Both the position numbers and the translations under genes were made by a program. 64,000 nt of DNA from Pseudomonadota bacterium (GTDB lineage Bacteria; SAR324; NAC60-12): positions 9,767-73,766 of the forward strand of contig SHAT01000002.1 of the NCBI GenBank assembly GCA_004213175.1, read 5' to 3'. How positions within the stretch are numbered: position 1 is the stretch's first letter; every line of letters starts with the position of its first letter. This document shows, one piece after another, positions 21,303-51,854 of the stretch. Under the pieces are notes generated by a model. It saw nothing but the letters and a program-made list of their open reading frames with translations, ran no database searches and had not been told where the DNA came from.

Positions 21303-23003
21303 TTAAAAGAGTTGTTTTCGCTTGTTTGAGGGCAGAATATTGAGTGCTTCGCGATACTTTGCGACTGTTCTGCGGGCGACTTTGATTCCGCTTTGCTTCT
21401 CAAGAATATCAGCGATTTGTAAGTCTGTATAAGGTGATTTCAAGTTTTCTTTCTGTACCATTTGCAGAATCATATCTTTAATACGTTTTGAAGAAACCGC
21501 ATCCCCTCTACCCTGATCGATACCGCTGGTGAAAAAATATTTTAGTTCAAATATTCCTTGAGGCGTATGTACGTATTTGTTAGTAGTGATACGACTGACG
21601 GTTGACTCGTGTACATCAATATCTTCTGCAACATCCTTGAGTACAAGAGGCCGCAAAAAGTGAATGCCGTGCTCAAAGAATTTCTTTTGAAAACGTAAAA
21701 TACTTTTTGTCACTCGATAAATGGTTTTTTGCCTTTGCTCAATACTTTTTAGCAACCATTGACCTGCTTTAACTTTTTCTAAAATATACTCTTTGGTGAG
21801 ACTACCGTCTTCTTCCATCGAGTTGCTCAGATCCTTATAATAATTGCTAATACGAAGCCGAGGCATACCTGCGGAATTTAAAGCAACTTTATATTCATCA
21901 TCTTTTTGATAGATATAGACATCAGGAATTATGTAATGGTGCGATGGATTTGAAATAAACTCACGTCCCGGTTTTGGCTCAAGAGACATTATCAAGCGAT
22001 AAGACTCAATCACATTTTCAAGGTCCTGCTTATGTCTTCTTGCTATCTTTTTTAGATCTTTCGATTCCAAAAGAGGCATGTCATTTTTGACAATACGAGC
22101 ACTCAAATTTTGGCTTTCACCCAAAAAATTCAACTGTATCAAAAGACATTCCTGTAAACTTCTAGCACCAACTCCATTTGGGTTAAATTGTTGAATTATT
22201 CCAAGAACATATTCTACAAAAGAGCACGCTGCTATTGATAATTCAGGTCTATTTGGACCTTCTTCCCGAATATGTTTGTTTTCTTCAGATTCAGCAACAT
22301 CTGTTTCCTTATTTTTTTTCTTCTTGGTTGTTTTGCCTGATTGGAACCGGAGATCCATTAATTCTTTGTCAATTTCTGGAAGTTCAGGTAATTCACCTTT
22401 TTTATGACACAGGTTTATTTGATCGTACAGATCACTCTGAGATTCCAAAAGTTCACGCACACTTGTTACCAAAAAACCATCTTCATCAATATTGCCAATT
22501 ATGAAAGCACCCGTTCTATATTCCAATGGAGAAAGATCCTGCATGTCTAACTGCCAGATGAGGTGGTCAGCTAGTGATTCGGTTTGTGCTGCTGTGGACT
22601 CAATAGAAGGGCTTTCCTCATCATCAGAAGAAATGTTATAGCGTCTTTCCTGATAACCTCCGAATTGTTCAACCTGTTCAATATACTGCTGCCAGTCAAT
22701 CTCATCCTGATCATTATTCTCATTTTCAATTTCATTTTCACGAGCAGTTTCGAAATCTTCCGTATCTGATACTACTTCAGGACTTTCAGCCGTTTCGACT
22801 GTTTCAGTAGATTCATCTTTTTTGTTGGGATAGGTATCCATGTCTATGCCCTCCTCAAGAACTGGGTTTTCTATTAGAGTTTGTTCAATTAACTCTTCCA
22901 GTTCTGTCCGTGACAATTGCAAAAGTTTAATAGCCTGCTGCAGCTGCGGAGTCATAATCAGCTGCTGGCTCATCTTCATTTGCATCTTCATCTGCATAGC
23001 CAT
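21303..23003 (-). CDS. rpoN: RNA polymerase sigma-54 factor
   Basis: The C-terminal RpoN box is ARRTVAKYRE. An X-link/HTH region is present, together with a Gln-rich N-terminus and an acidic insert. 566 aa. Confidence 0.9.
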   Translation of the reverse strand: MAMQMKMQMKMSQQLIMTPQLQQAIKLLQLSRTELEELIEQTLIENPVLEEGIDMDTYPNKKDESTETVETAESPEVVSDTEDFETARENEIENENNDQDEIDWQQYIEQVEQFGGYQERRYNISSDDEESPSIESTAAQTESLADHLIWQLDMQDLSPLEYRTGAFIIGNIDEDGFLVTSVRELLESQSDLYDQINLCHKKGELPELPEIDKELMDLRFQSGKTTKKKKNKETDVAESEENKHIREEGPNRPELSIAACSFVEYVLGIIQQFNPNGVGARSLQECLLIQLNFLGESQNLSARIVKNDMPLLESKDLKKIARRHKQDLENVIESYRLIMSLEPKPGREFISNPSHHYIIPDVYIYQKDDEYKVALNSAGMPRLRISNYYKDLSNSMEEDGSLTKEYILEKVKAGQWLLKSIEQRQKTIYRVTKSILRFQKKFFEHGIHFLRPLVLKDVAEDIDVHESTVSRITTNKYVHTPQGIFELKYFFTSGIDQGRGDAVSSKRIKDMILQMVQKENLKSPYTDLQIADILEKQSGIKVARRTVAKYREALNILPSNKRKQLF

Positions 23004-29802: not shown

Positions 29803-30600
29803 TCAAAGCGGATAATAGAAATTAAGATAGATCGTGTGTAATTGACTTTGTTTCAAAAAAGAAGTTGAAGCAGAAGTATTAAAAAATGGCAGCTGTTGCC
29901 CCAGTGAAAAACGATAATATATTAATAAATTTGAAGTGACGAAATAGGACACTCCGGTCTCGATTCCAAGAGCAATTTCATCTTGATAAGCATCATTACT
30001 AATGCTTCCGGCAAAACGGGTTTTAGTAAACTGAAGCCCAGCGCCATAGTGCAAATAAAAGTCACTTTTGATTTTTGGGTATTGTATGTACCATAAATTA
30101 TTTTGGATTACTTCAAGTTCCCTACCGGATTCTTCTTGATAAGTAAAAGATTCCGAGTGTTCAACAATCGAAACTTGCCTTTCATATTCTACTACCTGCT
30201 CATTCCAATAATATCCCAAATTGAATCCAATTCCATTTGCAGTACCATCTGAATCCGATATAATAATTGTTTCAGCAACTTGAAGCTTCACACTGCGAAA
30301 TCCAACACCAAAATAGAAGCCTATCCCTTGAGCGGATGTTCCAGAGACAAAAAAATCTGGTTCCTGGGTTGCGGTCCGTGCCTCTAAACTGCGCTCCTCC
30401 ATTTCACTTTGTTCGAGAGCAAGCTGTGTCTGCGCATCTAACTCTCCTACAAAAATAATAAAACAGCAAACATTTATCAAGAACAGAACTGATTTGGAAA
30501 TCGCCTGGTTCATAAAATTCTTTAATGCAGATGAGTATCTGTTGTTTTTCATATCATTATTCCATATCTGGTAATATTTGTTCCGGAATAGAGATACCAC
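29803..30600 (-). CDS. Putative outer-membrane beta-barrel protein
   Basis: Signal-like hydrophobic segment, alternating amphipathic strands and an aromatic-rich C-terminus (LNFYYPL). The true start is probably an internal Met (MKNNRY... or later), because the annotated N-terminus overlaps lptD. Confidence 0.4.
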   Translation of the reverse strand: MVSLFRNKYYQIWNNDMKNNRYSSALKNFMNQAISKSVLFLINVCCFIIFVGELDAQTQLALEQSEMEERSLEARTATQEPDFFVSGTSAQGIGFYFGVGFRSVKLQVAETIIISDSDGTANGIGFNLGYYWNEQVVEYERQVSIVEHSESFTYQEESGRELEVIQNNLWYIQYPKIKSDFYLHYGAGLQFTKTRFAGSISNDAYQDEIALGIETGVSYFVTSNLLIYYRFSLGQQLPFFNTSASTSFLKQSQLHTIYLNFYYPL

Positions 30601-33211
30601 CTAAGTTAATGTAGGCGTAAAGGGTACGGTCAATATATTCTTGTTCAAGTCCGCTGTTTGATTCTGTTATGCCTACATCTTCTGTGAGAGCAAGACGGAT
30701 ATCCCAGCATTCAGGTCGGTAATCCAGTGTGAAAGCACTTGAACTTAGACGTCGTCGAAAGGTATAACTGTCTGCATCTAAATTGACAGTCCCGGAAAAC
30801 CCAAAAGCCAGTTCGTCACTTGCTTCAAAGCTGTTGCTGAAACCAAATGTGTTAGCTGCAGCAACATCATTACCAAAAGGTGTTTGATAAGCTTCTTCAT
30901 TGTTACGAAAATTTACAGACGCTTTGTTGTGTGCACTCAACCCTACACTTACTTCTAATGAATATTCTACAACCCGCCTCTTCTGATGGTGGTAGCGATT
31001 AAAAAGATTTATTGAAAATGTGCTACCGGGTCTGAAATTTAAGATAGTTCGCAGGGGTAATAAGGGTTGATTTGAATCAGTCTCATTACCTTTAACTGAA
31101 GGACCTACAGGCTGAAAATAGGGATCTTTTTTGAAAAAGTCATAATGCTGGACAAAATTTAAATTGGCGAGATTCCGACTTTTTCCTTCACGCGTTTGAA
31201 CACCAGCTTGACTGTTCAACATAGGTATTACACCTTTCTCCGCATATCCTAGAATGGAGTCTATTTGCTGAGCACTTAATTCCCCCCCAAACAACCTGTC
31301 TAACTTCTCAATAAATAATTTTTCAGAACCTAATTCCTGGCCTAGAATCTGTTCTAATTTTCGAATTAAGACTGGATCCAGTTGATTTCTTCTCATTCTG
31401 TCCAATGAAAGCGATGTTAATTTAATTCTTCGTTCAAAGAAACGACGTTTGACGAGAAGTACATTTTCTATGCGTAATGTTGCAAGTCTACGTGTAGAAA
31501 TTGTTCCTCCAAATGGAACTCCGGAATCAGATATTTGCAAGACATCTTCGATATATTCGTATTGAAGGCGTGGTTTTATCAAGTGCTTGAAACGACTGTA
31601 AATTCCCGAATCTGTTTTAAAATTCCGGGACAAAGTTGTGTTGATTTCAGCTTTACCGTCCAAAATATTGAAGCCATAAGCATCTTCACTTCCGGGCACA
31701 TCCGAATCACGAACTTTGTAGCTGGATATTTTTTCCCCTACTTCAAGGCTAACGTTATAATGTTGAAAAAGAGGAAACTGAAAATTCAATCTGGGAGTGA
31801 CATTTACTCCTTCACCATTGTAACCCTTTACTCTGAAATATCGTACAGCAGATCCACTCAGCGAGCTGGTCAAAGTTGATTTTTCAGATCGCCATAAAGT
31901 ATCACTAAATTGAAATGAAAAAGCCGGTAGGTATTGAATTTGTGTGAGATCAATTTTTCGATTCAAAATAGCCAATTCACTAAAGATCCGTGTTTGAGTT
32001 GCAGAAAATGTGACACTTCCTTTTGAAAACTGCCTGTTGATATTTACCGAAAATTGCTGTGCGGTATTAGGGTCTGGACTTTCAATCAGTTCATATTCCT
32101 TTTGAAACTGACTGTCACTGTAAACCAGCGCAGAAGTAATCAGTCTACTTTGTCCATCTAATTGTTGATTGTGATTAAATTCAAATTTGAAACGCTGCGG
32201 TTTTAATTCTGAAGATTCTATCTCCTGAGGGCTTAGACTTCCTGATTCATTTAAAGGTGAACGAGGATCCCGTTCAAAAAATTGCTGAAATTTTATTTCA
32301 CCACGCATTCCCTCTTTCCAGGCATATTGATAATCCAGACGAAATCCTGGACCGCGAAGCTCCACCCAATCATATGTAAATGTCAAATCCTGTTCCTGAT
32401 CAATATTCCAAAAATACGGAATCCCAATTCGGTAACCCAGATCAAATTTTTTCAGACTACTACGGACTAAGAGATATTCCGGAGGAAGGAAGCCTGACTG
32501 ACGACGTTTAACAGTCGGCCAAGCAAGATAGGGGAAATAAAAAACTGGAACTCCACCTACTCTTAAAGTAGAACTGCTCGATGATGAGAAATTTTGTGCA
32601 TAATATTTTACCTCACTGCCAGTGACCTTCCATGCCGGAGATTTCGGATTACAAGTAGTAAATGTACAAGTTTTTGCAACATATTCGCCTTTATCTAACC
32701 TATGGACTTCCTTCGCGGTCATGTATGCTTTGCTTGAGGCATCATAAAAAATGGCTCCTCTAAAAACTCCTGTTCCGTCTTTAATGTTGATTTCTAACTC
32801 ATCCATCACCGCGATAACTTCACCTTCTGTCACTCTGACATAACCTTTTGCAGTTAATTTGTTTTTTCCCGGGTGATATAATATTTCCGTACTTTCAACT
32901 GATATTTCCTCCCATTCAACTTTTGCGTTGCGGTAAAGATATGTCCCTGCATCAGGATTGTGTAAGTAGGATTGTGTCTGAATTGAAAGTTCCGGAACAT
33001 CCAATTCTACTTGCGCAAATCCTTGAATAGGTATGGAAGCAATGAACCCCAGTATCAAGATAATAACACTTATGAAATAGTTCAAAATATCAAATAAATA
33101 AACTACTTCACATTTGGAACCTAAATGTTCCTGATTTGTTTTTTTGTTAGTCAGTGAATGCAAGGGAATCATAATTGGCGGGAAGAAACAAAACTTAAAA
33201 CTGGCCAGCAA
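30557..33211 (-). CDS. lptD: LPS-assembly protein LptD (OstA family)
   Basis: 884 aa with an N-terminal OstA-like beta-jellyroll region and a large C-terminal beta-barrel. The start is likely at an internal Met before the signal peptide (FISVIILILGFIASIPIQGFAQ). Confidence 0.75.
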   Translation of the reverse strand: MLASFKFCFFPPIMIPLHSLTNKKTNQEHLGSKCEVVYLFDILNYFISVIILILGFIASIPIQGFAQVELDVPELSIQTQSYLHNPDAGTYLYRNAKVEWEEISVESTEILYHPGKNKLTAKGYVRVTEGEVIAVMDELEINIKDGTGVFRGAIFYDASSKAYMTAKEVHRLDKGEYVAKTCTFTTCNPKSPAWKVTGSEVKYYAQNFSSSSSSTLRVGGVPVFYFPYLAWPTVKRRQSGFLPPEYLLVRSSLKKFDLGYRIGIPYFWNIDQEQDLTFTYDWVELRGPGFRLDYQYAWKEGMRGEIKFQQFFERDPRSPLNESGSLSPQEIESSELKPQRFKFEFNHNQQLDGQSRLITSALVYSDSQFQKEYELIESPDPNTAQQFSVNINRQFSKGSVTFSATQTRIFSELAILNRKIDLTQIQYLPAFSFQFSDTLWRSEKSTLTSSLSGSAVRYFRVKGYNGEGVNVTPRLNFQFPLFQHYNVSLEVGEKISSYKVRDSDVPGSEDAYGFNILDGKAEINTTLSRNFKTDSGIYSRFKHLIKPRLQYEYIEDVLQISDSGVPFGGTISTRRLATLRIENVLLVKRRFFERRIKLTSLSLDRMRRNQLDPVLIRKLEQILGQELGSEKLFIEKLDRLFGGELSAQQIDSILGYAEKGVIPMLNSQAGVQTREGKSRNLANLNFVQHYDFFKKDPYFQPVGPSVKGNETDSNQPLLPLRTILNFRPGSTFSINLFNRYHHQKRRVVEYSLEVSVGLSAHNKASVNFRNNEEAYQTPFGNDVAAANTFGFSNSFEASDELAFGFSGTVNLDADSYTFRRRLSSSAFTLDYRPECWDIRLALTEDVGITESNSGLEQEYIDRTLYAYINLGGISIPEQILPDME

Positions 33212-49005: not shown

Positions 49006-49404
49006 GAATCAGAAATTTTCCGGCTAATTATTTTGTTTGATAAATATTTATATGTGGTTCTTAGTTAAAACATCATCATAACCGATGGTGAACTTATTGT
49101 AAATTCCAGTTTTTAGAAAAAGTTCATCTTAAACAATGATTTGATCATTTTGAAAAAAGTAGTAAATTAAGGACTAATGCATATTTTTTTGTATTTTTGA
49201 TCTAAAATATTAAATTGCTGAAAAATCATTAATTCTCAGAAAAGACTTGCTAAAATCAGGCCGGATGTGGCATCTATTGTGTAGAAGATTAAGTAGAAGA
49301 TTATTAATTTGATGCTTCCTGAAACATTTTTCAGTATGGGTGCGTTGCTTCAAAGCAAAAATGAGACTTTATCAAGTAAATTGAAACATCAAAACTGAGG
49401 AATA

Positions 49405-50901
49405 ATGGCAGAAATAACTGATGATGTTGAAATCAAACTGACCCCAGAAGATAGTCCAAATGAAATATTAAAAGATCTAGGAGATAAAGAGTTGTTAGAA
49501 GAAGACCTCAACGGAGATGACCCGTTATTGGGACTGGATGATTCAGATATGGATGACATGTTCCCGGATTCTGATGATGTGGATGATTCTCCAGATGAGG
49601 TTGAAATAGACTTAGGTATGGATGAAATTGGTGATCTTGTAGAAGACTTAAAATTGGATGTGGCTGAGGATGATGAAGAGGTACATGTTAATGGAGAAGG
49701 AGATATGGTTTTCGATGAGGAAGAAATTAATAATGACAGTAATGACTCAGTAGAAAGTTTACTTGATGCATTTGAAGATGATGACGATGACGGAGAGCAT
49801 AGAGTTGTAGATGATTCTCTTGAAAAGGAAACTCCTACTGATCCAGAAAAAGACTCTGAAAATGATATTGAGCAAAGTCCAGAGTCACAGGAAGAACATG
49901 TTCCTTTAGTAACGGAATCCCCAGTTGAAGAAGAAGGAGGAGATAGCGATGATTCAGGAGAATCTAATCCCTCAGATTTAATTGATATCTTAGATGACTC
50001 TGATATTTCGGATGATAGTGACCAAGAAGAAGATGAAGATATGGAACTAGGCATGGATACTCTTGACGAAACCAAAGATGAAGAATTATCAGATCTTGAG
50101 CTCGATACTACGGAGATTGAGGAATCCGTCGACTTGGATGTTCCTGCTATAGACACTTCAGATGAAACTAAGGAAGTGGATATCTCGGATGAATCAAAAG
50201 ATGATGAAATAACGGATCTCGGCATTGATGATGTCGAGACTGTTGAGATAGAAAATGATGAGGATAAGTCTCCAGTTGGAATTGATGAAGTAGAAGTCAC
50301 GGATGAAATAACAGATAATGAAATGCCGGATCTTGGAATTGACGATGCCGAAACTGTTGAGATAGAAAATGATGAGGATTATTCTGCTGATGAATCAGCT
50401 GAAGTTGAACTTGAAGAGGATATTTTTGAGTCTGAGGCAGAAGATATTGCAGTAACTGAGATAGCAACCGAAACTCAAGGATTACTTGAGGAGTTAAGTG
50501 GGGAGAATGAAGAAATTGAAACTGAAGTACAAGAAACGCCTTCAGATGAATTAACTAAAGAGAATGAAGAAATTATAAATGTAGCTCAAGAAACACCTTC
50601 TATTGTTATAGTGGAGAGTGAAATGCCAATTGAATCAGAGGCAACAGAGACAATAGCAGCACCTTTAGACTCAAACATGCTGTTAAACTTCAACCATGAA
50701 GTAGTGGTCGAAATAGCGAGGACAAGCCTTACCGGCGAAGAAATCACACAGATCACATATGGCAGCATCATTGAACTTGATAAAGTTGCAGGTGAACCAG
50801 TAAATTTAGTCCTCAACGGTAAAACAATTGCTCTTGGGGAAGTTGTACAAATAAACAATGAAAAACTGGGCATACGAATTGTGGGCGTTATCCAGGACTA
50901 A
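49405..50901 (+). CDS. FliN/SpoA-domain protein with ~430-aa hyper-acidic repetitive N-terminal region
   Basis: The C-terminal ~70 aa (VVVEIARTSLTGEEITQITYGSIIELDKVAGEPVNLVLNGKTIALGEVVQINNEKLGIRIVGVI) match the FliN/SctQ SpoA fold. The N-terminus is about 35% D/E with internal repeats. Confidence 0.7.
   Translation: MAEITDDVEIKLTPEDSPNEILKDLGDKELLEEDLNGDDPLLGLDDSDMDDMFPDSDDVDDSPDEVEIDLGMDEIGDLVEDLKLDVAEDDEEVHVNGEGDMVFDEEEINNDSNDSVESLLDAFEDDDDDGEHRVVDDSLEKETPTDPEKDSENDIEQSPESQEEHVPLVTESPVEEEGGDSDDSGESNPSDLIDILDDSDISDDSDQEEDEDMELGMDTLDETKDEELSDLELDTTEIEESVDLDVPAIDTSDETKEVDISDESKDDEITDLGIDDVETVEIENDEDKSPVGIDEVEVTDEITDNEMPDLGIDDAETVEIENDEDYSADESAEVELEEDIFESEAEDIAVTEIATETQGLLEELSGENEEIETEVQETPSDELTKENEEIINVAQETPSIVIVESEMPIESEATETIAAPLDSNMLLNFNHEVVVEIARTSLTGEEITQITYGSIIELDKVAGEPVNLVLNGKTIALGEVVQINNEKLGIRIVGVIQD
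50200..50385 (+). repeat. Internal tandem repeat (~100-114 nt period) in the acidic region of the FliN-like gene
   Basis: The nucleotide repeats are ...ggatctcggcattgatgatgtcgagactgttgagatagaaaatgatgaggata... and ...ggatcttggaattgacgatgccgaaactgttgagatagaaaatgatgaggatta.... They encode DLGIDDVETVEIENDEDKS and DLGIDDAETVEIENDEDYS. Confidence 0.7.
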
Positions 50902-50909
50902 TTGAAATT

Positions 50910-51854
50910 ATGCTTCACCAAACATCAGACATCCCCATAAAACCCTTTGAGTTAGCTGAAACTCAATTCAATACAGGACGTTTCCACATAATGGATATTG
51001 TCTTTCGTCGGTGGGCAACTCTCTTGCAAGAGACGCTTTACGCGGAAATGGGAATGATGTTAGATATATCCGCTGAAAATGTTGAGAAGATGCGTTTTGG
51101 GAAATTATTAGATTCGGTTGAGGAACAGCCGATCTATATTTTTGAAACTTTAAACAATGGCCGTGGTTTTTTACTTGTAGAAAAACCTTTTTTTGATTTA
51201 TCACTTAATGGGAAAGTAGATAATACCTCAGAAGAGTTGTCACTAGTAAAAATGATGAAAGAAAATAGACAAACTCTACTGAAATTAGTATCAACATTGA
51301 TTGATTGCTTTGAAAAAAGCTGGAAAAATATTGCAGAGGTTGAACTTAAACTGAATCGTGTTACCATCTATCCCCGCAGGGCAAATGTCATGTTGCCTTA
51401 CGAGAATTGTTTCTCAGGACGTATTCAGCTGATTCATGAAGATCTTCAAACAAGTATCCAGTTATGCATGCCTTATGCTGCTCTTGTGTCTGTACTTAGA
51501 CCGCTTGAAAACAAAAAGATTATTGAGCCTGAATCGATAGGGTATTATTTCCCTCATGTGAAAGATAATTTTAAGAATTTACTGGAAAGTTCTGAATATT
51601 CTGTTGTTGCTGAATTAGGTAAGGCGGATCTGAGAGAAGCAAAAGGGAAGCTAGAAGAAGGGCAGGTCCTCCCCCTGCTGAATAAAGATGGCCTCGCTAC
51701 AATCCGGATAAACGGAACCCCTGCTTTGCAAGGTTCAACAGGAGAATCTTCAGGGCATTATTCAGTTCAAGTGATACGAGGTGCTGAGGATAAAAAACCT
51801 TCGGCAATTCAGCAAAAAAAGAAATTCAAACAACTTGCCTGGCCAACTCAATAG
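50910..51854 (+). CDS. FliM-like flagellar motor switch family protein lacking the N-terminal CheY-P binding peptide
   Basis: 314 aa. The middle domain has a FliM-like LCMPYAALVSVL (ciPy motif). The C-terminus (GQVLPLLNKDG...RINGTPALQGSTGESSGHYSVQVI) is a SpoA-like fold. There is no LSQDEIDALL-type N-terminus. It lies 9 nt after the FliN-like gene. Confidence 0.6.
   Translation: MLHQTSDIPIKPFELAETQFNTGRFHIMDIVFRRWATLLQETLYAEMGMMLDISAENVEKMRFGKLLDSVEEQPIYIFETLNNGRGFLLVEKPFFDLSLNGKVDNTSEELSLVKMMKENRQTLLKLVSTLIDCFEKSWKNIAEVELKLNRVTIYPRRANVMLPYENCFSGRIQLIHEDLQTSIQLCMPYAALVSVLRPLENKKIIEPESIGYYFPHVKDNFKNLLESSEYSVVAELGKADLREAKGKLEEGQVLPLLNKDGLATIRINGTPALQGSTGESSGHYSVQVIRGAEDKKPSAIQQKKKFKQLAWPTQ

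What the first reader, a model, noticed from the sequence alone, without database searches (positions are those of the whole stretch)
49405..51854. Isolated FliN(SpoA)-FliM-like gene pair, with FliN fused to a 430-aa poly-acidic repeat domain
Gene 49405-50901 ends in a FliN/SctQ-type SpoA domain. Its first ~430 aa are about 35% Asp/Glu, low-complexity, and contain internal repeats (DLGIDDxETVEIENDED). Gene 50910-51854, starting 9 nt later, has FliM middle-domain (LCMPY) and SpoA-like C-terminal features but lacks the N-terminal CheY-P-binding peptide. No fliG, flhA, fliP or other flagellar or T3SS genes are within 10 kb on either side. The neighbours are a TPR protein, relA/spoT, a GCS2 ligase and an M50 protease. 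Canonical FliN is ~100-140 aa, so a 498-aa acidic fusion is atypical. The pair may be a divergent paralogous switch complex or a non-flagellar SpoA scaffold whose output is not chemotaxis-coupled.
Basis: partly seen in the sequence, partly recalled or inferred. Interest (0 to 1): 0.7.

Follow-up and report, generated by a model that had tools for sequence, protein, structure and literature searches.

The report
Remodelled flagellar switch gene pair, SAR324
An abundant, uncultured ocean bacterial lineage (SAR324) carries, throughout the phylum, a stand-alone two-gene operon for flagellar-rotor proteins FliN and FliM: the FliN has a ~420-residue, extremely acidic disordered arm, and the FliM has lost both its chemotaxis-signal docking peptide and its usual FliG-binding motif, so this rotor base is either wired differently from every studied flagellum or has been put to another use.

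Summary
Gene 49405-50901 encodes a 498-aa protein. Residues 1-~420 are disordered (41% Asp+Glu, net charge -161, internal tandem repeats). The last ~75 residues are a typical FliN SpoA domain, 47% identical to Thermotoga FliN. Eight bases downstream, gene 50910-51854 encodes a 314-aa protein with a confident FliM fold plus a FliM-type SpoA domain.

The source is the SAR324 phylum. The pair has the same order and 8-nt gap, an acidic partner of 288-546 aa, and no flagellar neighbour in every lineage sampled (about nine distinct genomic contexts).

The FliM-like family ("short class") differs from canonical FliM in four ways:
- no LSQxEIDALL CheY peptide;
- no GGXG FliG-binding loop;
- no EGREFT motif;
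- a new conserved C-terminal tail, F-x-x-phi-x-[WFY]-P.

Isolation alone is not unusual, because published SAR324 genomes have scattered flagellar genes, and "fliM" is recorded in 24 of 24 of them.

I could not establish whether a second, canonical fliM/fliN exists in these genomes. My best reading (0.55) is that this is the lineage's own, remodelled and CheY-uncoupled C-ring base. The main rivals are a phylum-wide non-flagellar scaffold (0.22) and an accessory second switch set (0.15). It is a new variant of a known kind.

The parts
49006..49404 (.). Intergenic region shared with the divergent TPR gene. It holds three DNA blocks conserved across marine SAR324 clades: about 49073-49115; about 49129-49170 with the palindrome AATGATTTGATCATT at 49135-49149; and about 49235-49282 containing GCCGGATGTGGCAT at 49260-49273. 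Presumed promoter/operator region.
   Evidence: Alignment of 9 upstream regions from clades whose FliM-like proteins are only 50-60% identical. Both motifs are unique in the window. No Rfam family matches. There is no good sigma-70 site on the + strand. No sigma-28 or sigma-54 consensus is conserved in distant lineages.
49405..50901 (+). Gene for the acidic N-extended FliN-type protein (498 aa). A GAGGA Shine-Dalgarno sequence lies 6 nt upstream of the ATG.
   Evidence: Orthologs of 288-546 aa sit immediately upstream of every FliM-like gene examined. The wider family is about 114 clusters of 275-673 aa.
49405..50682 (+). Poly-acidic intrinsically disordered region (aa 1-426). Conserved short islands: MAExSDDFEIKLSxEDSPxDIL (aa 1-22), LGMDEIGDLVEDLKLD (aa ~70-85), DMVF (~aa 100-103), DSVESLLD (~aa 114-121), SD(L/V)(I/L)D(I/M)L (~aa 191-197), ELGMDTLD (~aa 215-222).
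   Evidence: Composition and charge. Ortholog alignment. AF2 pLDDT is mostly below 50, with helical propensity only at aa 14-23, 72-81 and ~194. No Pfam or NCBIfam hit even at E<=1.
50156..50383 (+). Tandem 114-nt (38-aa) duplication, two copies at 80% identity, carrying EITDLGIDDVETVEIENDED / EMPDLGIDDAETVEIENDED. It is present only in the window's own clade.
50488..50600 (+). Second tandem pair: 56-nt copies spaced 57 nt apart (19 aa), 77% identity.
50683..50892 (+). FliN-type SpoA (FliMN_C) domain, aa 427-496.
   Evidence: Pfam E=5.9e-15. TIGR02480 fliN 58 bits. 46.8% identity to T. maritima FliN 1o6a (E=7e-16) and 39% to Salmonella FliN (E=8e-13). Thirty-five invariant columns across 20 family members.
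50902..50909 (+). 8-nt intercistronic spacer (TTGAAATT). The spacing is conserved in nearly all orthologs, which suggests one operon and possibly coupled translation.
50910..51854 (+). Gene for the short-class FliM-like protein (314 aa).
50961..51497 (+). FliM middle domain (aa 18-196).
   Evidence: Pfam FliM E=1.1e-9. AF2 pLDDT is 86-95 over most of aa 30-200, apart from the 101-110 loop. Foldseek matches FliM_M crystal structures at TM 0.78-0.84 and rmsd 2.7-3.9 A, ahead of FliY, CheC and CheX.
51210..51242 (+). Loop (aa 101-111, NGKVDNTSEEL) at the position of the canonical GGXG FliG-binding motif. No glycine is conserved in the family. The 351-aa clade has a 37-aa insertion exactly here.
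   Evidence: HMMER alignment to Vibrio FliM 7dm9. MAFFT of 17 short-class plus 6 canonical FliMs. Insertion. pLDDT drops to 56.
51585..51779 (+). FliM_C-type SpoA domain (aa 226-290).
   Evidence: Pfam FliMN_C E=1.7e-5. In the Salmonella FliM_C-FliN fusion 4yxb it aligns better to the FliM_C half (22 bits) than to the FliN half (6.3 bits).
51789..51851 (+). Family-specific disordered C-terminal tail (aa 294-314) ending in the conserved motif F306-K-Q-L-A-W311-P312 (nt 51825-51845). Canonical FliMs lack it.
   Evidence: F306 is invariant and W311 nearly invariant. The F-x-x-phi-x-[WFY]-P pattern is seen across all short-class groups and is absent from the 6 canonical FliMs aligned. pLDDT is below 50.

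Best explanation
The two genes form one operon and encode the SAR324 phylum's own version of the lower flagellar C-ring (switch complex).

Proposed mechanism:
- The FliM-like protein's C-terminal SpoA domain pairs with the FliN-type SpoA domain of the acidic protein. This gives the usual FliM_C:FliN building block at the cytoplasmic rim of the ring.
- The FliM middle domain forms the ring wall.
- The complex is rewired in three ways.
  1. There is no CheY-P docking peptide on either protein, so rotation is not switched by the classical CheY-FliM route.
  2. The GGXG loop that normally clamps FliM to FliG is gone, so attachment to FliG must use another surface. The new conserved C-terminal tail is a candidate.
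  3. Each FliN subunit carries a ~300-550-residue polyanionic disordered arm. It has a few conserved short helical motifs and repeated [DE]-L-G-phi-D units. At ring copy number these arms would form a dense negatively charged brush, or a multivalent docking platform, below the motor.

Shown here: domain identities, the FliM fold, the motif losses and gain, disorder and charge of the arm, operon structure, and phylum-wide conservation and synteny.

Inferred: assembly into a flagellar C-ring, the FliG-binding route, absence of CheY control, and any role of the acidic arm.
For: 1. The SpoA domain of the acidic protein is as close to authentic flagellar FliN as FliN orthologs usually are across phyla. 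It is 46.8% identical to T. maritima FliN (E=7e-16) and 39% to Salmonella FliN. That is much closer than to SctQ (46 bits against 58 for FliN).
2. The two SpoA domains keep their separate FliM_C and FliN types.
3. The best structural match of the FliM-like model is full-length Salmonella C-ring FliM (E=3e-20), and FliM_M crystals match at TM ~0.8.
4. SAR324 genomes are reported to carry flagellar genes in all genomes: 23 of 32 KEGG flagellar-assembly genes in one improved SAG, scattered rather than clustered (PMC9031357, PMC4749706, PMC4782131). 'fliM' is recorded in 24/24 genomes while che genes are patchy. CheA, CheW and MCP are missing from most marine bins, which fits loss of the CheY peptide.
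5. The pair is universal and strongly conserved across the phylum, with mean column identity 67% among marine FliM-like proteins.
6. No short SAR324 FliN appeared between the family and clostridial FliY in the homolog search.
Against: 1. GGXG and the following EGREFT motif are present in every canonical FliM examined here and absent from the whole family. A sole FliM that cannot bind FliG in the known way has no precedent that I know of.
2. Both proteins fall far below NCBI's equivalog cut-offs: FliM 73 against 219.6 bits, FliN 58 against 84.
3. The gene order is N then M with no fliL, the reverse of the canonical fliL-fliM-fliN operons in the two unrelated organisms fetched for comparison.
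4. The pair is never next to any flagellar gene in about nine distinct contexts. In three divergent lineages its ancestral neighbour looks like gidB.
5. I could not scan a whole SAR324 genome, so a second canonical fliM/fliN is not excluded. The negative evidence in point 6 above is weak because of listing caps and missing organism names.
6. One study places SAR324 motility structures mostly above 200 m (PMC8364033), whereas this pair also occurs in deep and subsurface lineages.
Confidence: 0.55

Rival explanations
1. Non-flagellar SpoA scaffold. An ancient duplicate of FliM/FliN was recruited, at the root of the SAR324 phylum, into a different cytoplasmic assembly, for example a polar hub or sorting platform. 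It exists alongside, or independently of, a canonical flagellar switch encoded elsewhere. The acidic arm and the new FliM tail are its client-binding elements.
For: - Both interfaces that tie FliM to the flagellar signalling and torque chain are lost: the CheY peptide and GGXG.
- A family-specific C-terminal motif has been gained.
- The context is always housekeeping and never flagellar.
- The gene order is reversed.
- Scores fall below the equivalog cut-offs.
- The pair is found in 24/24 genomes and in deep and subsurface lineages, while motility genes are reported as depth-restricted or halved in some groups.
Against: - No canonical SAR324 fliM/fliN was found.
- The FliN SpoA domain is barely diverged from real FliN (47% identity to Thermotoga), which is unexpected for a domain released from flagellar constraints since the origin of a phylum.
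- The FliH-patch positions are mostly kept: L68 to I, A93, V111 and V112.
- No non-flagellar, non-injectisome role for a FliM/FliN pair turned up in the literature searches.
- Scattered flagellar genes are normal for this lineage.
Confidence: 0.22
2. Accessory second switch set. The pair co-exists with a canonical fliM/fliN and assembles into the same or a second flagellar motor, as FliY does alongside FliN in Helicobacter and Campylobacter, or FliM2/FliN2 in dual-flagellar species. It would give a CheY-insensitive rotor variant.
For: - Extra C-ring paralogs are known. [quoted passage not shown] S. putrefaciens has FliG2/FliM2/FliN2 (PMC8203827).
- The SpoA domain is very FliN-like.
- Like FliY, the protein is an N-extended FliN.
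Against: - No second set was detected.
- The known accessory FliM and FliY proteins keep GGXG or CheC-like folds (from my own knowledge). This FliM has no GGXG, and the extension is disordered with no CheC domain.
- Known second sets sit in their own flagellar clusters (also from my own knowledge), whereas this pair is always alone.
Confidence: 0.15
3. Injectisome-type (SctQ-like) sorting-platform remnant from a non-flagellar T3SS.
For: Weak NCBIfam hits of the SpoA region to SctQ/YscQ models (E=5e-12 and weaker). A faint or weak Pfam SepQ_C hit is recorded on some orthologs.
Against: - FliN and FliY models score higher than SctQ.
- PDB sequence hits are all flagellar FliN or FliY.
- The partner has a FliM middle domain, and its fold search puts FliM first.
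- No T3SS gene is present in any context.
Confidence: 0.03
4. Decaying relic: non-functional leftovers of a lost flagellar operon, with the acidic region as meaningless low-complexity expansion.
For: Low scores to the curated models. The length of the acidic region is highly variable.
Against: - Both reading frames are intact, with conserved spacing, in every lineage examined.
- Strong purifying conservation: 67% mean column identity in FliM-like, 35 invariant SpoA columns in FliN-like, and conserved islands inside the acidic region.
- The upstream DNA is conserved.
Confidence: 0.02

Closest known systems
Canonical flagellar FliM + FliN (Salmonella / E. coli / Thermotoga C-ring)
   Same: FliM middle-domain fold plus a C-terminal FliM_C-type SpoA domain. 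The partner has a FliN-type SpoA domain (47% identical to Thermotoga FliN). The genes are adjacent and co-oriented.
   Different: - No N-terminal LSQxEIDALL peptide, no GGXG, no EGREFT.
- An extra conserved C-terminal tail.
- FliN is 498 aa (family range 275-673) instead of ~118-137 aa.
- The order is N then M, with no fliL or fliOPQR next to it.
- Both proteins score below the equivalog cut-offs.
FliY (Bacillus / Thermotoga; also Helicobacter and Campylobacter alongside FliN)
   Same: A FliN homolog with a C-terminal SpoA domain and a long N-terminal extension, encoded next to fliM. FliY is the second-best NCBIfam hit, and clostridial FliY is the nearest non-family sequence relative. Background from PMC12826062.
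   Different: FliY's extension is an EIDAL CheY-binding peptide plus a folded CheC-like phosphatase domain. Here the extension is disordered and poly-acidic. It has no CheC/CheX Pfam hit, no fold and no significant EIDAL-type peptide.
FliM of secondary, CheY-insensitive flagellar systems (e.g. Shewanella putrefaciens FliM2)
   Same: A FliM without the CheY-docking N-terminus that nevertheless works in a motor. That FliM2 lacks the peptide is my own recollection of Bubendorfer et al. 2014 and Schuhmacher et al. 2015. Only the existence of FliG2/FliM2/FliN2 was confirmed here (PMC8203827).
   Different: Those proteins sit in complete secondary flagellar clusters and, as far as I know, keep GGXG and a short FliN2. 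The SAR324 pair is isolated, lacks GGXG and has the acidic FliN.
Acidic repeat regions of polar hub proteins (HubP/FimV type)
   Same: By analogy only: a long, very acidic, repetitive and probably disordered cytoplasmic region attached to a flagellum-related organiser. HubP is described as the polar landmark that recruits FlhF (PMC12826062). That its cytoplasmic part consists of acidic repeats is from my own knowledge.
   Different: No sequence homology was tested or found. HubP is a membrane-anchored LysM protein, not a SpoA protein.
Injectisome SctQ (YscQ/Spa33/HrcQ)
   Same: A SpoA domain, with weak model hits. It also lacks a CheY peptide and GGXG.
   Different: Lower scores than to FliN. 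The partner is clearly FliM-fold. No T3SS genes are nearby.

Membership tests
FliM (PF02154 / TIGR01397) | FliM middle-domain (CheC-like) fold | tested here: met
   Pfam FliM E=1.1e-9, above the gathering score. The family profile matches PDB FliM 8umd (E=2.6e-10) and 7dm9 (E=7.5e-6). The AF2 model has pLDDT 86-95 over most of aa 30-200; Foldseek puts FliM first at E=3e-20, with FliM_M at TM ~0.8.
FliM (PF02154 / TIGR01397) | C-terminal SpoA domain of FliM_C type | tested here: met
   Pfam FliMN_C E=1.7e-5 (25.1 bits against 23.8). It aligns to the FliM_C half of 4yxb better than to the FliN half.
FliM (PF02154 / TIGR01397) | N-terminal CheY-P-binding peptide (LSQxEIDALL) | tested here: not met
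   The protein starts at profile position 33 of TIGR01397. All short-class members start about 27-30 residues later than canonical FliMs. No upstream in-frame extension is possible.
FliM (PF02154 / TIGR01397) | GGXG motif (FliG middle-domain contact) and the following EGREFT | tested here: not met
   Present in all 6 aligned canonical FliMs and in most of the other canonical sequences read. Absent in all 17 short-class members. The window has LNGKVDNTSEEL at that position.
FliM (PF02154 / TIGR01397) | Score above NCBI's equivalog cut-off | tested here: not met
   73 bits against a cut-off of 219.6. NCBI names the orthologs 'FliM/FliN family', not 'FliM'.
FliM (PF02154 / TIGR01397) | Assembles in the C-ring and binds FliG | not testable with these tools
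   This needs a complex prediction, pull-down or cryo-ET. No SAR324 FliG sequence could be retrieved.
FliN (PF01052 / TIGR02480) | FliN-type SpoA domain | tested here: met
   Pfam E=5.9e-15. 46.8% identity to T. maritima FliN (E=7e-16) and 39% to Salmonella FliN.
FliN (PF01052 / TIGR02480) | Score above the equivalog-domain cut-off; small protein (~100-160 aa) | tested here: not met
   58.2 bits against 84.05. It is 498 aa here and 275-673 aa in the family, against 118-119 aa in the comparison operons and 137 aa in Salmonella.
FliN (PF01052 / TIGR02480) | Hydrophobic patch that binds FliH (Salmonella L68, A93, V111-V113; residue list from my own knowledge) | tested here: inconclusive
   The positions map to I, A, V, V, Q. 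Position 113 is Q or R in most orthologs and V in L019.
FliY | N-terminal EIDAL CheY-binding peptide | tested here: not met
   A weight matrix from 58 canonical peptides was scanned over 12 acidic domains. The best scores are not above composition-matched shuffles (P=0.17-0.91).
FliY | CheC-like phosphatase middle domain | tested here: not met
   No CheC/CheX-type Pfam hit at E<=1, whereas real FliY hits carry PF04509 and PF13690. AF2 predicts disorder.
Injectisome SctQ | Best match to SctQ models and a T3SS gene neighbourhood | tested here: not met
   SctQ scores 46 bits (cut-off 100.8), below FliN and FliY. No T3SS genes are in the window or in any related locus.

The most novel reading that the evidence does not exclude
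The pair is the only FliM/FliN in SAR324. It would then define a new architecture of the flagellar C-ring in one of the most abundant deep-ocean bacterial lineages. In that architecture the rotor wall attaches to FliG without the universal GGXG-EHPQR contact, perhaps through the new C-terminal F-x-x-phi-x-W-P tail. It has no CheY docking site. From each FliN subunit hangs a ~-160-charge disordered arm, so the motor base carries a polyanionic brush or multivalent hub of on the order of 10^4 negative charges. The equally unconventional alternative is a phylum-wide non-flagellar machine built from FliM/FliN.
Probability: 0.45. Interest if true: 0.75.

Novelty: new variant of a known kind. Interest (0 to 1): 0.55.

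Why it matters
FliM and FliN are among the most conserved parts of the bacterial flagellum. In the model organisms studied, the GGXG-FliG contact and the CheY-docking peptide are central to how torque direction is set.

A whole phylum, and an ecologically dominant one in the dark ocean, keeps a FliM fold and a near-canonical FliN SpoA domain but has dropped both features and added a giant acidic arm. That gives a natural experiment on which C-ring contacts are truly indispensable, and on what disordered appendages can do at a rotary motor.

If the pair instead proves to be non-flagellar, it would be the first FliM/FliN-based assembly I am aware of outside flagella and injectisomes.

In practice, 'fliM present' is used as a motility and chemotaxis marker in SAR324 and other MAG surveys (PMC9031357, PMC10359470). 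This family would be counted as FliM although it cannot receive CheY in the known way.

Tried and rejected
1. Relocated CheY-docking peptide. LGMDEIGDLV in the acidic arm resembles LSQDEIDALL. A weight matrix from 58 canonical FliM peptides gave no score above composition-matched shuffles in any of 12 orthologous arms. Rejected.

2. Sigma-28 promoter. The marine upstream block AAAAG-N15-GCCGGATA resembles TAAAG-N14-GCCGATAA. It is off by one in spacing and has an extra G, and nothing similar exists in distant lineages. Not supported.

3. Sigma-54 promoter. A TGGCA(G/T) motif recurs upstream. The -24/-12 spacing is 2 nt short in most lineages, and the GG is not conserved in some marine clades. 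Not supported.

4. Small RNA or riboswitch in the 400-nt leader. No Rfam match better than E=0.09.

5. Paralogy through the literature. Five SAR324 papers and their supplements give no fliM/fliN copy numbers. Chitsaz et al. 2011 is not held.

6. Paralogy through the databases.
- Twenty of the best-scoring canonical FliMs were looked up.
- Two were traced to contigs of unrelated assemblies that carry classic flagellar gene clusters.
- The FliN-like homolog search showed no short SAR324 FliN.
- All of this is weak negative evidence only.

7. Looking for a lineage where the pair sits in a flagellar cluster. None was found among the SAR324 loci from the genome-collection scan, six further contexts and eight metagenome contigs. 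The metagenome contigs were too short (1-3 kb) to help.

8. Hidden flagellar genes among the window ORFs without Pfam hits. None appeared at E<=0.1 in NCBIfam.

9. A recurring operator. The upstream palindrome and the GCCGGAT block do not recur elsewhere in the window.

10. The 303-aa antisense ORF at 49389-50300. It is a by-product of the GAT/GAA-rich coding strand and not a gene. The conservation and the SpoA domain are on the + strand.

Full report
**What is in the sequence**

The two ORFs are real and have exactly the stated coordinates. A GAGGA ribosome-binding site precedes the first gene. An 8-nt spacer separates the two genes.

Protein 1 (498 aa) ends in a FliMN_C/SpoA domain at aa 427-496 (Pfam E=5.9e-15). 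Residues 1-420 are 41% Asp+Glu and 2.9% Lys+Arg, with net charge -161. They contain a 38-aa tandem duplication (80% DNA identity), a 19-aa tandem pair (77%), and five LG[IMLV]D motifs where composition predicts 0.06.

Protein 2 (314 aa) has a Pfam FliM middle domain at aa 18-196 (E=1.1e-9) and a second SpoA domain at aa 226-290 (E=1.7e-5).

Both proteins fall far below NCBI's equivalog cut-offs: FliM 73 bits against 219.6, FliN 58 against 84.

Every other ORF of 80 aa or more in the 64-kb window was screened, and none is flagellar or T3SS-related. The neighbours are ArgRS, PNP, MurG, GDPD, RelA/SpoT, a TPR protein, GCS2, an M50 protease and others. rpoN lies 26 kb away.

**Whose genome it is, and how widespread the pair is**

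Homologs of the FliM-like protein are named SAR324 cluster bacterium. An identical copy lies on a Tara Oceans contig.

A scan of one genome per GTDB species returned 15 loci. All are SAR324, Lambdaproteobacteria or 'Deltaproteobacteria' MAGs, apart from two broadly labelled proteobacterial MAGs and one unnamed 34%-identity relative.

In every locus an acidic SpoA protein sits directly upstream: 288-498 aa where complete, 28-39% Asp+Glu, usually with an 8-nt gap.

The marine clades share the synteny RelA/SpoT, 218-aa ORF, TPR | pair | GCS2, M50, even at 50% protein identity.

An exhaustive profile search of 1.84 billion representatives found 935 hits, and these fall into two classes:
- A short class starts where the window protein starts. 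Its named members are SAR324, Candidatus Lambdaproteobacteria and 'Deltaproteobacteria bacterium TL4'.
- Canonical FliMs carry about 27-30 extra N-terminal residues.

Contexts of the most divergent short-class members again show the pair alone:
- groundwater Lambdaproteobacteria: gidB | 495 aa | 318 aa;
- L022: gidB | 418 aa | 320 aa;
- a high-GC JGI contig: gidB | 512 aa | 310 aa;
- TL4: 546 aa | 320 aa.

The FliN-like family comprises about 114 clusters, all N-extended (275-673 aa). This is a conserved, phylum-wide, stand-alone bicistronic module.

**How the FliM-like protein differs from FliM**

I aligned 17 short-class and 6 canonical FliMs (sequences). The short class lacks the LSQxEIDALL CheY-binding peptide, the GGXG loop and the following EGREFT motif. 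It has gained a roughly 20-residue C-terminal tail ending in a conserved F-x-x-phi-x-[WFY]-P (FKQLAWP here; F306 is invariant).

HMMER alignment to Vibrio FliM 7dm9 places GGDG opposite a gap or non-conserved stretch. A 351-aa SAR324 clade carries a 37-aa insertion at exactly that point.

An AlphaFold2 model built with 23 sequences has mean pLDDT 77.7. The middle domain scores 86-95 over most of its length, dropping to 56 at the former GGXG loop. The first 19 residues and the C-terminal tail are disordered.

Foldseek ranks full-length Salmonella C-ring FliM first (E=3e-20). FliM_M crystal structures follow at TM 0.78-0.84 and rmsd 2.7-3.9 A. FliY, CheC and CheX come after them.

So the fold is FliM, but the two best-known functional interfaces are missing.

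**How the FliN-like protein compares with FliN**

Its SpoA domain is orthodox. It is 46.8% identical to Thermotoga FliN (E=7e-16) and 39% to Salmonella FliN (E=8e-13). Thirty-five columns are invariant across the family.

Four of the five FliH-patch positions I checked are conserved or conservative. The position of V113 is Gln or Arg in most members.

The two SpoA domains of the pair keep their distinct FliM_C and FliN types.

The N-terminal arm has no Pfam or NCBIfam match. It is predicted disordered (pLDDT mostly below 50), with helical propensity only at three conserved islands. Its length varies freely.

It still retains short conserved motifs in marine SAR324: MAExSDDFEIKLSxEDSP, LGMDEIGDLVEDLK, DSVESLLDEL, SSDVLDMLHDPE and ELGMDTLDD. 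Repeated [DE]-L-G-phi-D or DLDLD units are retained across the phylum.

I tested whether one of these motifs is a relocated CheY-docking peptide. A weight matrix from 58 canonical peptides finds nothing above composition-matched chance. That idea is rejected.

**Is the isolation meaningful?**

Published SAR324 genomes carry flagellar genes that are 'scattered throughout the entire genome' (PMC4782131). Motility genes are reported in all genomes (PMC9031357). One improved single-cell genome has 23 of 32 KEGG flagellar-assembly genes (PMC4749706).

'fliM' is recorded in 24 of 24 SAR324 genomes, while cheA, cheW and cheY are patchy. Most marine bins lack CheA, CheW and MCPs. That fits a FliM that no longer docks CheY.

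For comparison, two of the canonical FliMs that scored best against the family profile sit in flagellar gene contexts. One is a classic operon: fliF-G-H-I-J-K, flgD-E, fliL, fliM, fliN (118 aa), fliOPQR, flhBA, flhF, flhG, fliA. The other is the short cluster pilZ, motAB, fliL, fliM, fliN (119 aa). The SAR324 pair has the opposite gene order, no fliL, and a FliN three to five times longer.

**The open question**

I could not determine whether SAR324 genomes also encode a canonical fliM/fliN. No tool gave whole-genome access, and the literature and supplements give presence or absence only.

The indirect evidence is weakly negative:
- No short SAR324 FliN appears between the family and clostridial FliY in the homolog list.
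- None of the 20 best-scoring canonical FliMs that I looked up is labelled SAR324. Those with names are Desulfobacterota or 'Deltaproteobacteria'. This is what vertical descent of the SAR324 family from a deltaproteobacterial-type FliM would predict.

**Weighing the readings**

In favour of 'this is the lineage's own C-ring base':
- the near-canonical FliN SpoA domain;
- the retained FliM_C and FliN division of labour;
- the FliM fold;
- universality in a lineage that encodes flagella with scattered genes;
- che-gene patchiness;
- the lack of any detected second set.

Against it:
- a sole FliM without GGXG has no precedent that I know of;
- the gene order is reversed;
- the pair is never beside a flagellar gene in about nine contexts;
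- it occurs in deep and subsurface lineages, although one study places SAR324 motility structures mostly above 200 m.

My estimates are:
- 0.55 for a remodelled, CheY-uncoupled flagellar switch;
- 0.22 for a non-flagellar scaffold;
- 0.15 for an accessory second switch set;
- 0.03 for an injectisome remnant;
- 0.02 for a decaying relic.

The last two are disfavoured by the FliN-over-SctQ scores and by strong purifying conservation.

**Likely mechanism (inferred)**

The two proteins are made from one transcript. Their SpoA domains form the usual FliM_C:FliN units at the cytoplasmic rim, and FliM_M forms the wall. Contact with FliG uses a non-GGXG surface, for which the new C-terminal tail is a candidate. 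CheY-P cannot dock in the known way, so the motor would be unidirectional or controlled by another route.

The acidic arms project from the rim. There would be one per FliN, hence tens to about a hundred per ring at canonical stoichiometry. They could act as an electrostatic or entropic brush, or as a multivalent platform whose short helical motifs recruit partners.

None of these steps is shown experimentally.

**Novelty and score**

Automated pipelines already label these proteins 'FliM/FliN family' or 'FliN/FliY'. No paper found in my searches describes the acidic FliN arm, the missing GGXG and CheY peptide, the new tail, or the phylum-wide stand-alone operon.

I rate it a new variant of a known kind, with interest 0.55. 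It is moderately surprising to a flagellar specialist whichever way the copy-number question is settled, and a single genome-wide HMM scan would settle it.

Noticed in passing
window 49006-49404: The intergenic region between the divergent TPR gene and the acidic FliN gene has three blocks conserved at the DNA level, across SAR324 clades whose proteins are only 50-60% identical. They include the perfect palindrome AATGAT-TTG-ATCATT (49135-49149) and the block TCAGAAAAGACTTGCTAAAATCAGGCCGGATGTGGCAT (~49235-49273). They look like operator and promoter elements, but they match no sigma-70, sigma-28 or sigma-54 consensus cleanly and no Rfam family.
   Followed up: partly
L004, L015, L016, L017 (351-aa FliM-like clade); alignment A1 columns ~114-150: One SAR324 clade has a 37-aa insertion (for example EEIADDPKEEPSEGGFVGGLYDTIKKEITDVGSKMAHG) exactly at the position of the lost GGXG loop of FliM. 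It might be a replacement interaction element.
   Followed up: no
L020, L022, L023 (divergent short-class loci): gidB (rsmG) is the divergently oriented left neighbour of the pair in three distant lineages, and mnmG/gidA is near it in L019. This suggests that the ancestral context was the gidAB region rather than a flagellar cluster.
   Followed up: partly
L020 3951-6710 and 11675-13882; L022 10415-12685: In the Lambdaproteobacteria the pair lies between two hybrid histidine kinases (HisKA-HATPase-REC-Hpt), with a few other genes in between. In L022 a methyl-accepting chemotaxis protein lies 1.4 kb downstream. The association with signalling genes may be chance and is not seen in marine SAR324.
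   Followed up: no
protein P0162 (601 aa): A hit in the exhaustive search is an apparent FliM-FliG fusion from an unknown organism. The FliM part has GGPG but no CheY peptide, and it is followed by a region that I read by eye as FliG-like.
   Followed up: no
window 49389-50300, minus strand: A 303-aa antisense ORF overlaps the acidic domain. It is a by-product of the GAT/GAA-rich coding strand, which leaves no stop codons in the complementary frame. It is not a gene.
   Followed up: yes
L008 and L009 (MAG CPC1, NYXK01000159 and NYXK01000128): The same MAG holds two contigs that each carry the pair, both at 79% identity to the window. This probably reflects strain heterogeneity or redundant binning rather than a true duplication.
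   Followed up: no
L013 ~2050-2400 (SAR324-CTD7B upstream region): In this lineage the first two conserved upstream blocks are replaced by a stretch of GTAACAA-type short repeats. Only the GCCGGATATGGCAT block is kept.
   Followed up: no
window 30557-33211 (-) and 29803-30600 (-): An 884-aa ORF with no Pfam hit at E<=1e-4 matches the NCBIfam LptD model (E=2.4e-29, far below the cut-off). This looks like a divergent LPS-assembly protein. The overlapping 265-aa ORF downstream has only faint outer-membrane-protein hits.
   Followed up: partly
window 21303-23003 (-): rpoN (sigma-54) lies 26 kb from the pair, next to pspA and an ABC ATPase gene. I looked for a sigma-54 promoter upstream of the pair and did not find a convincing one.
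   Followed up: partly
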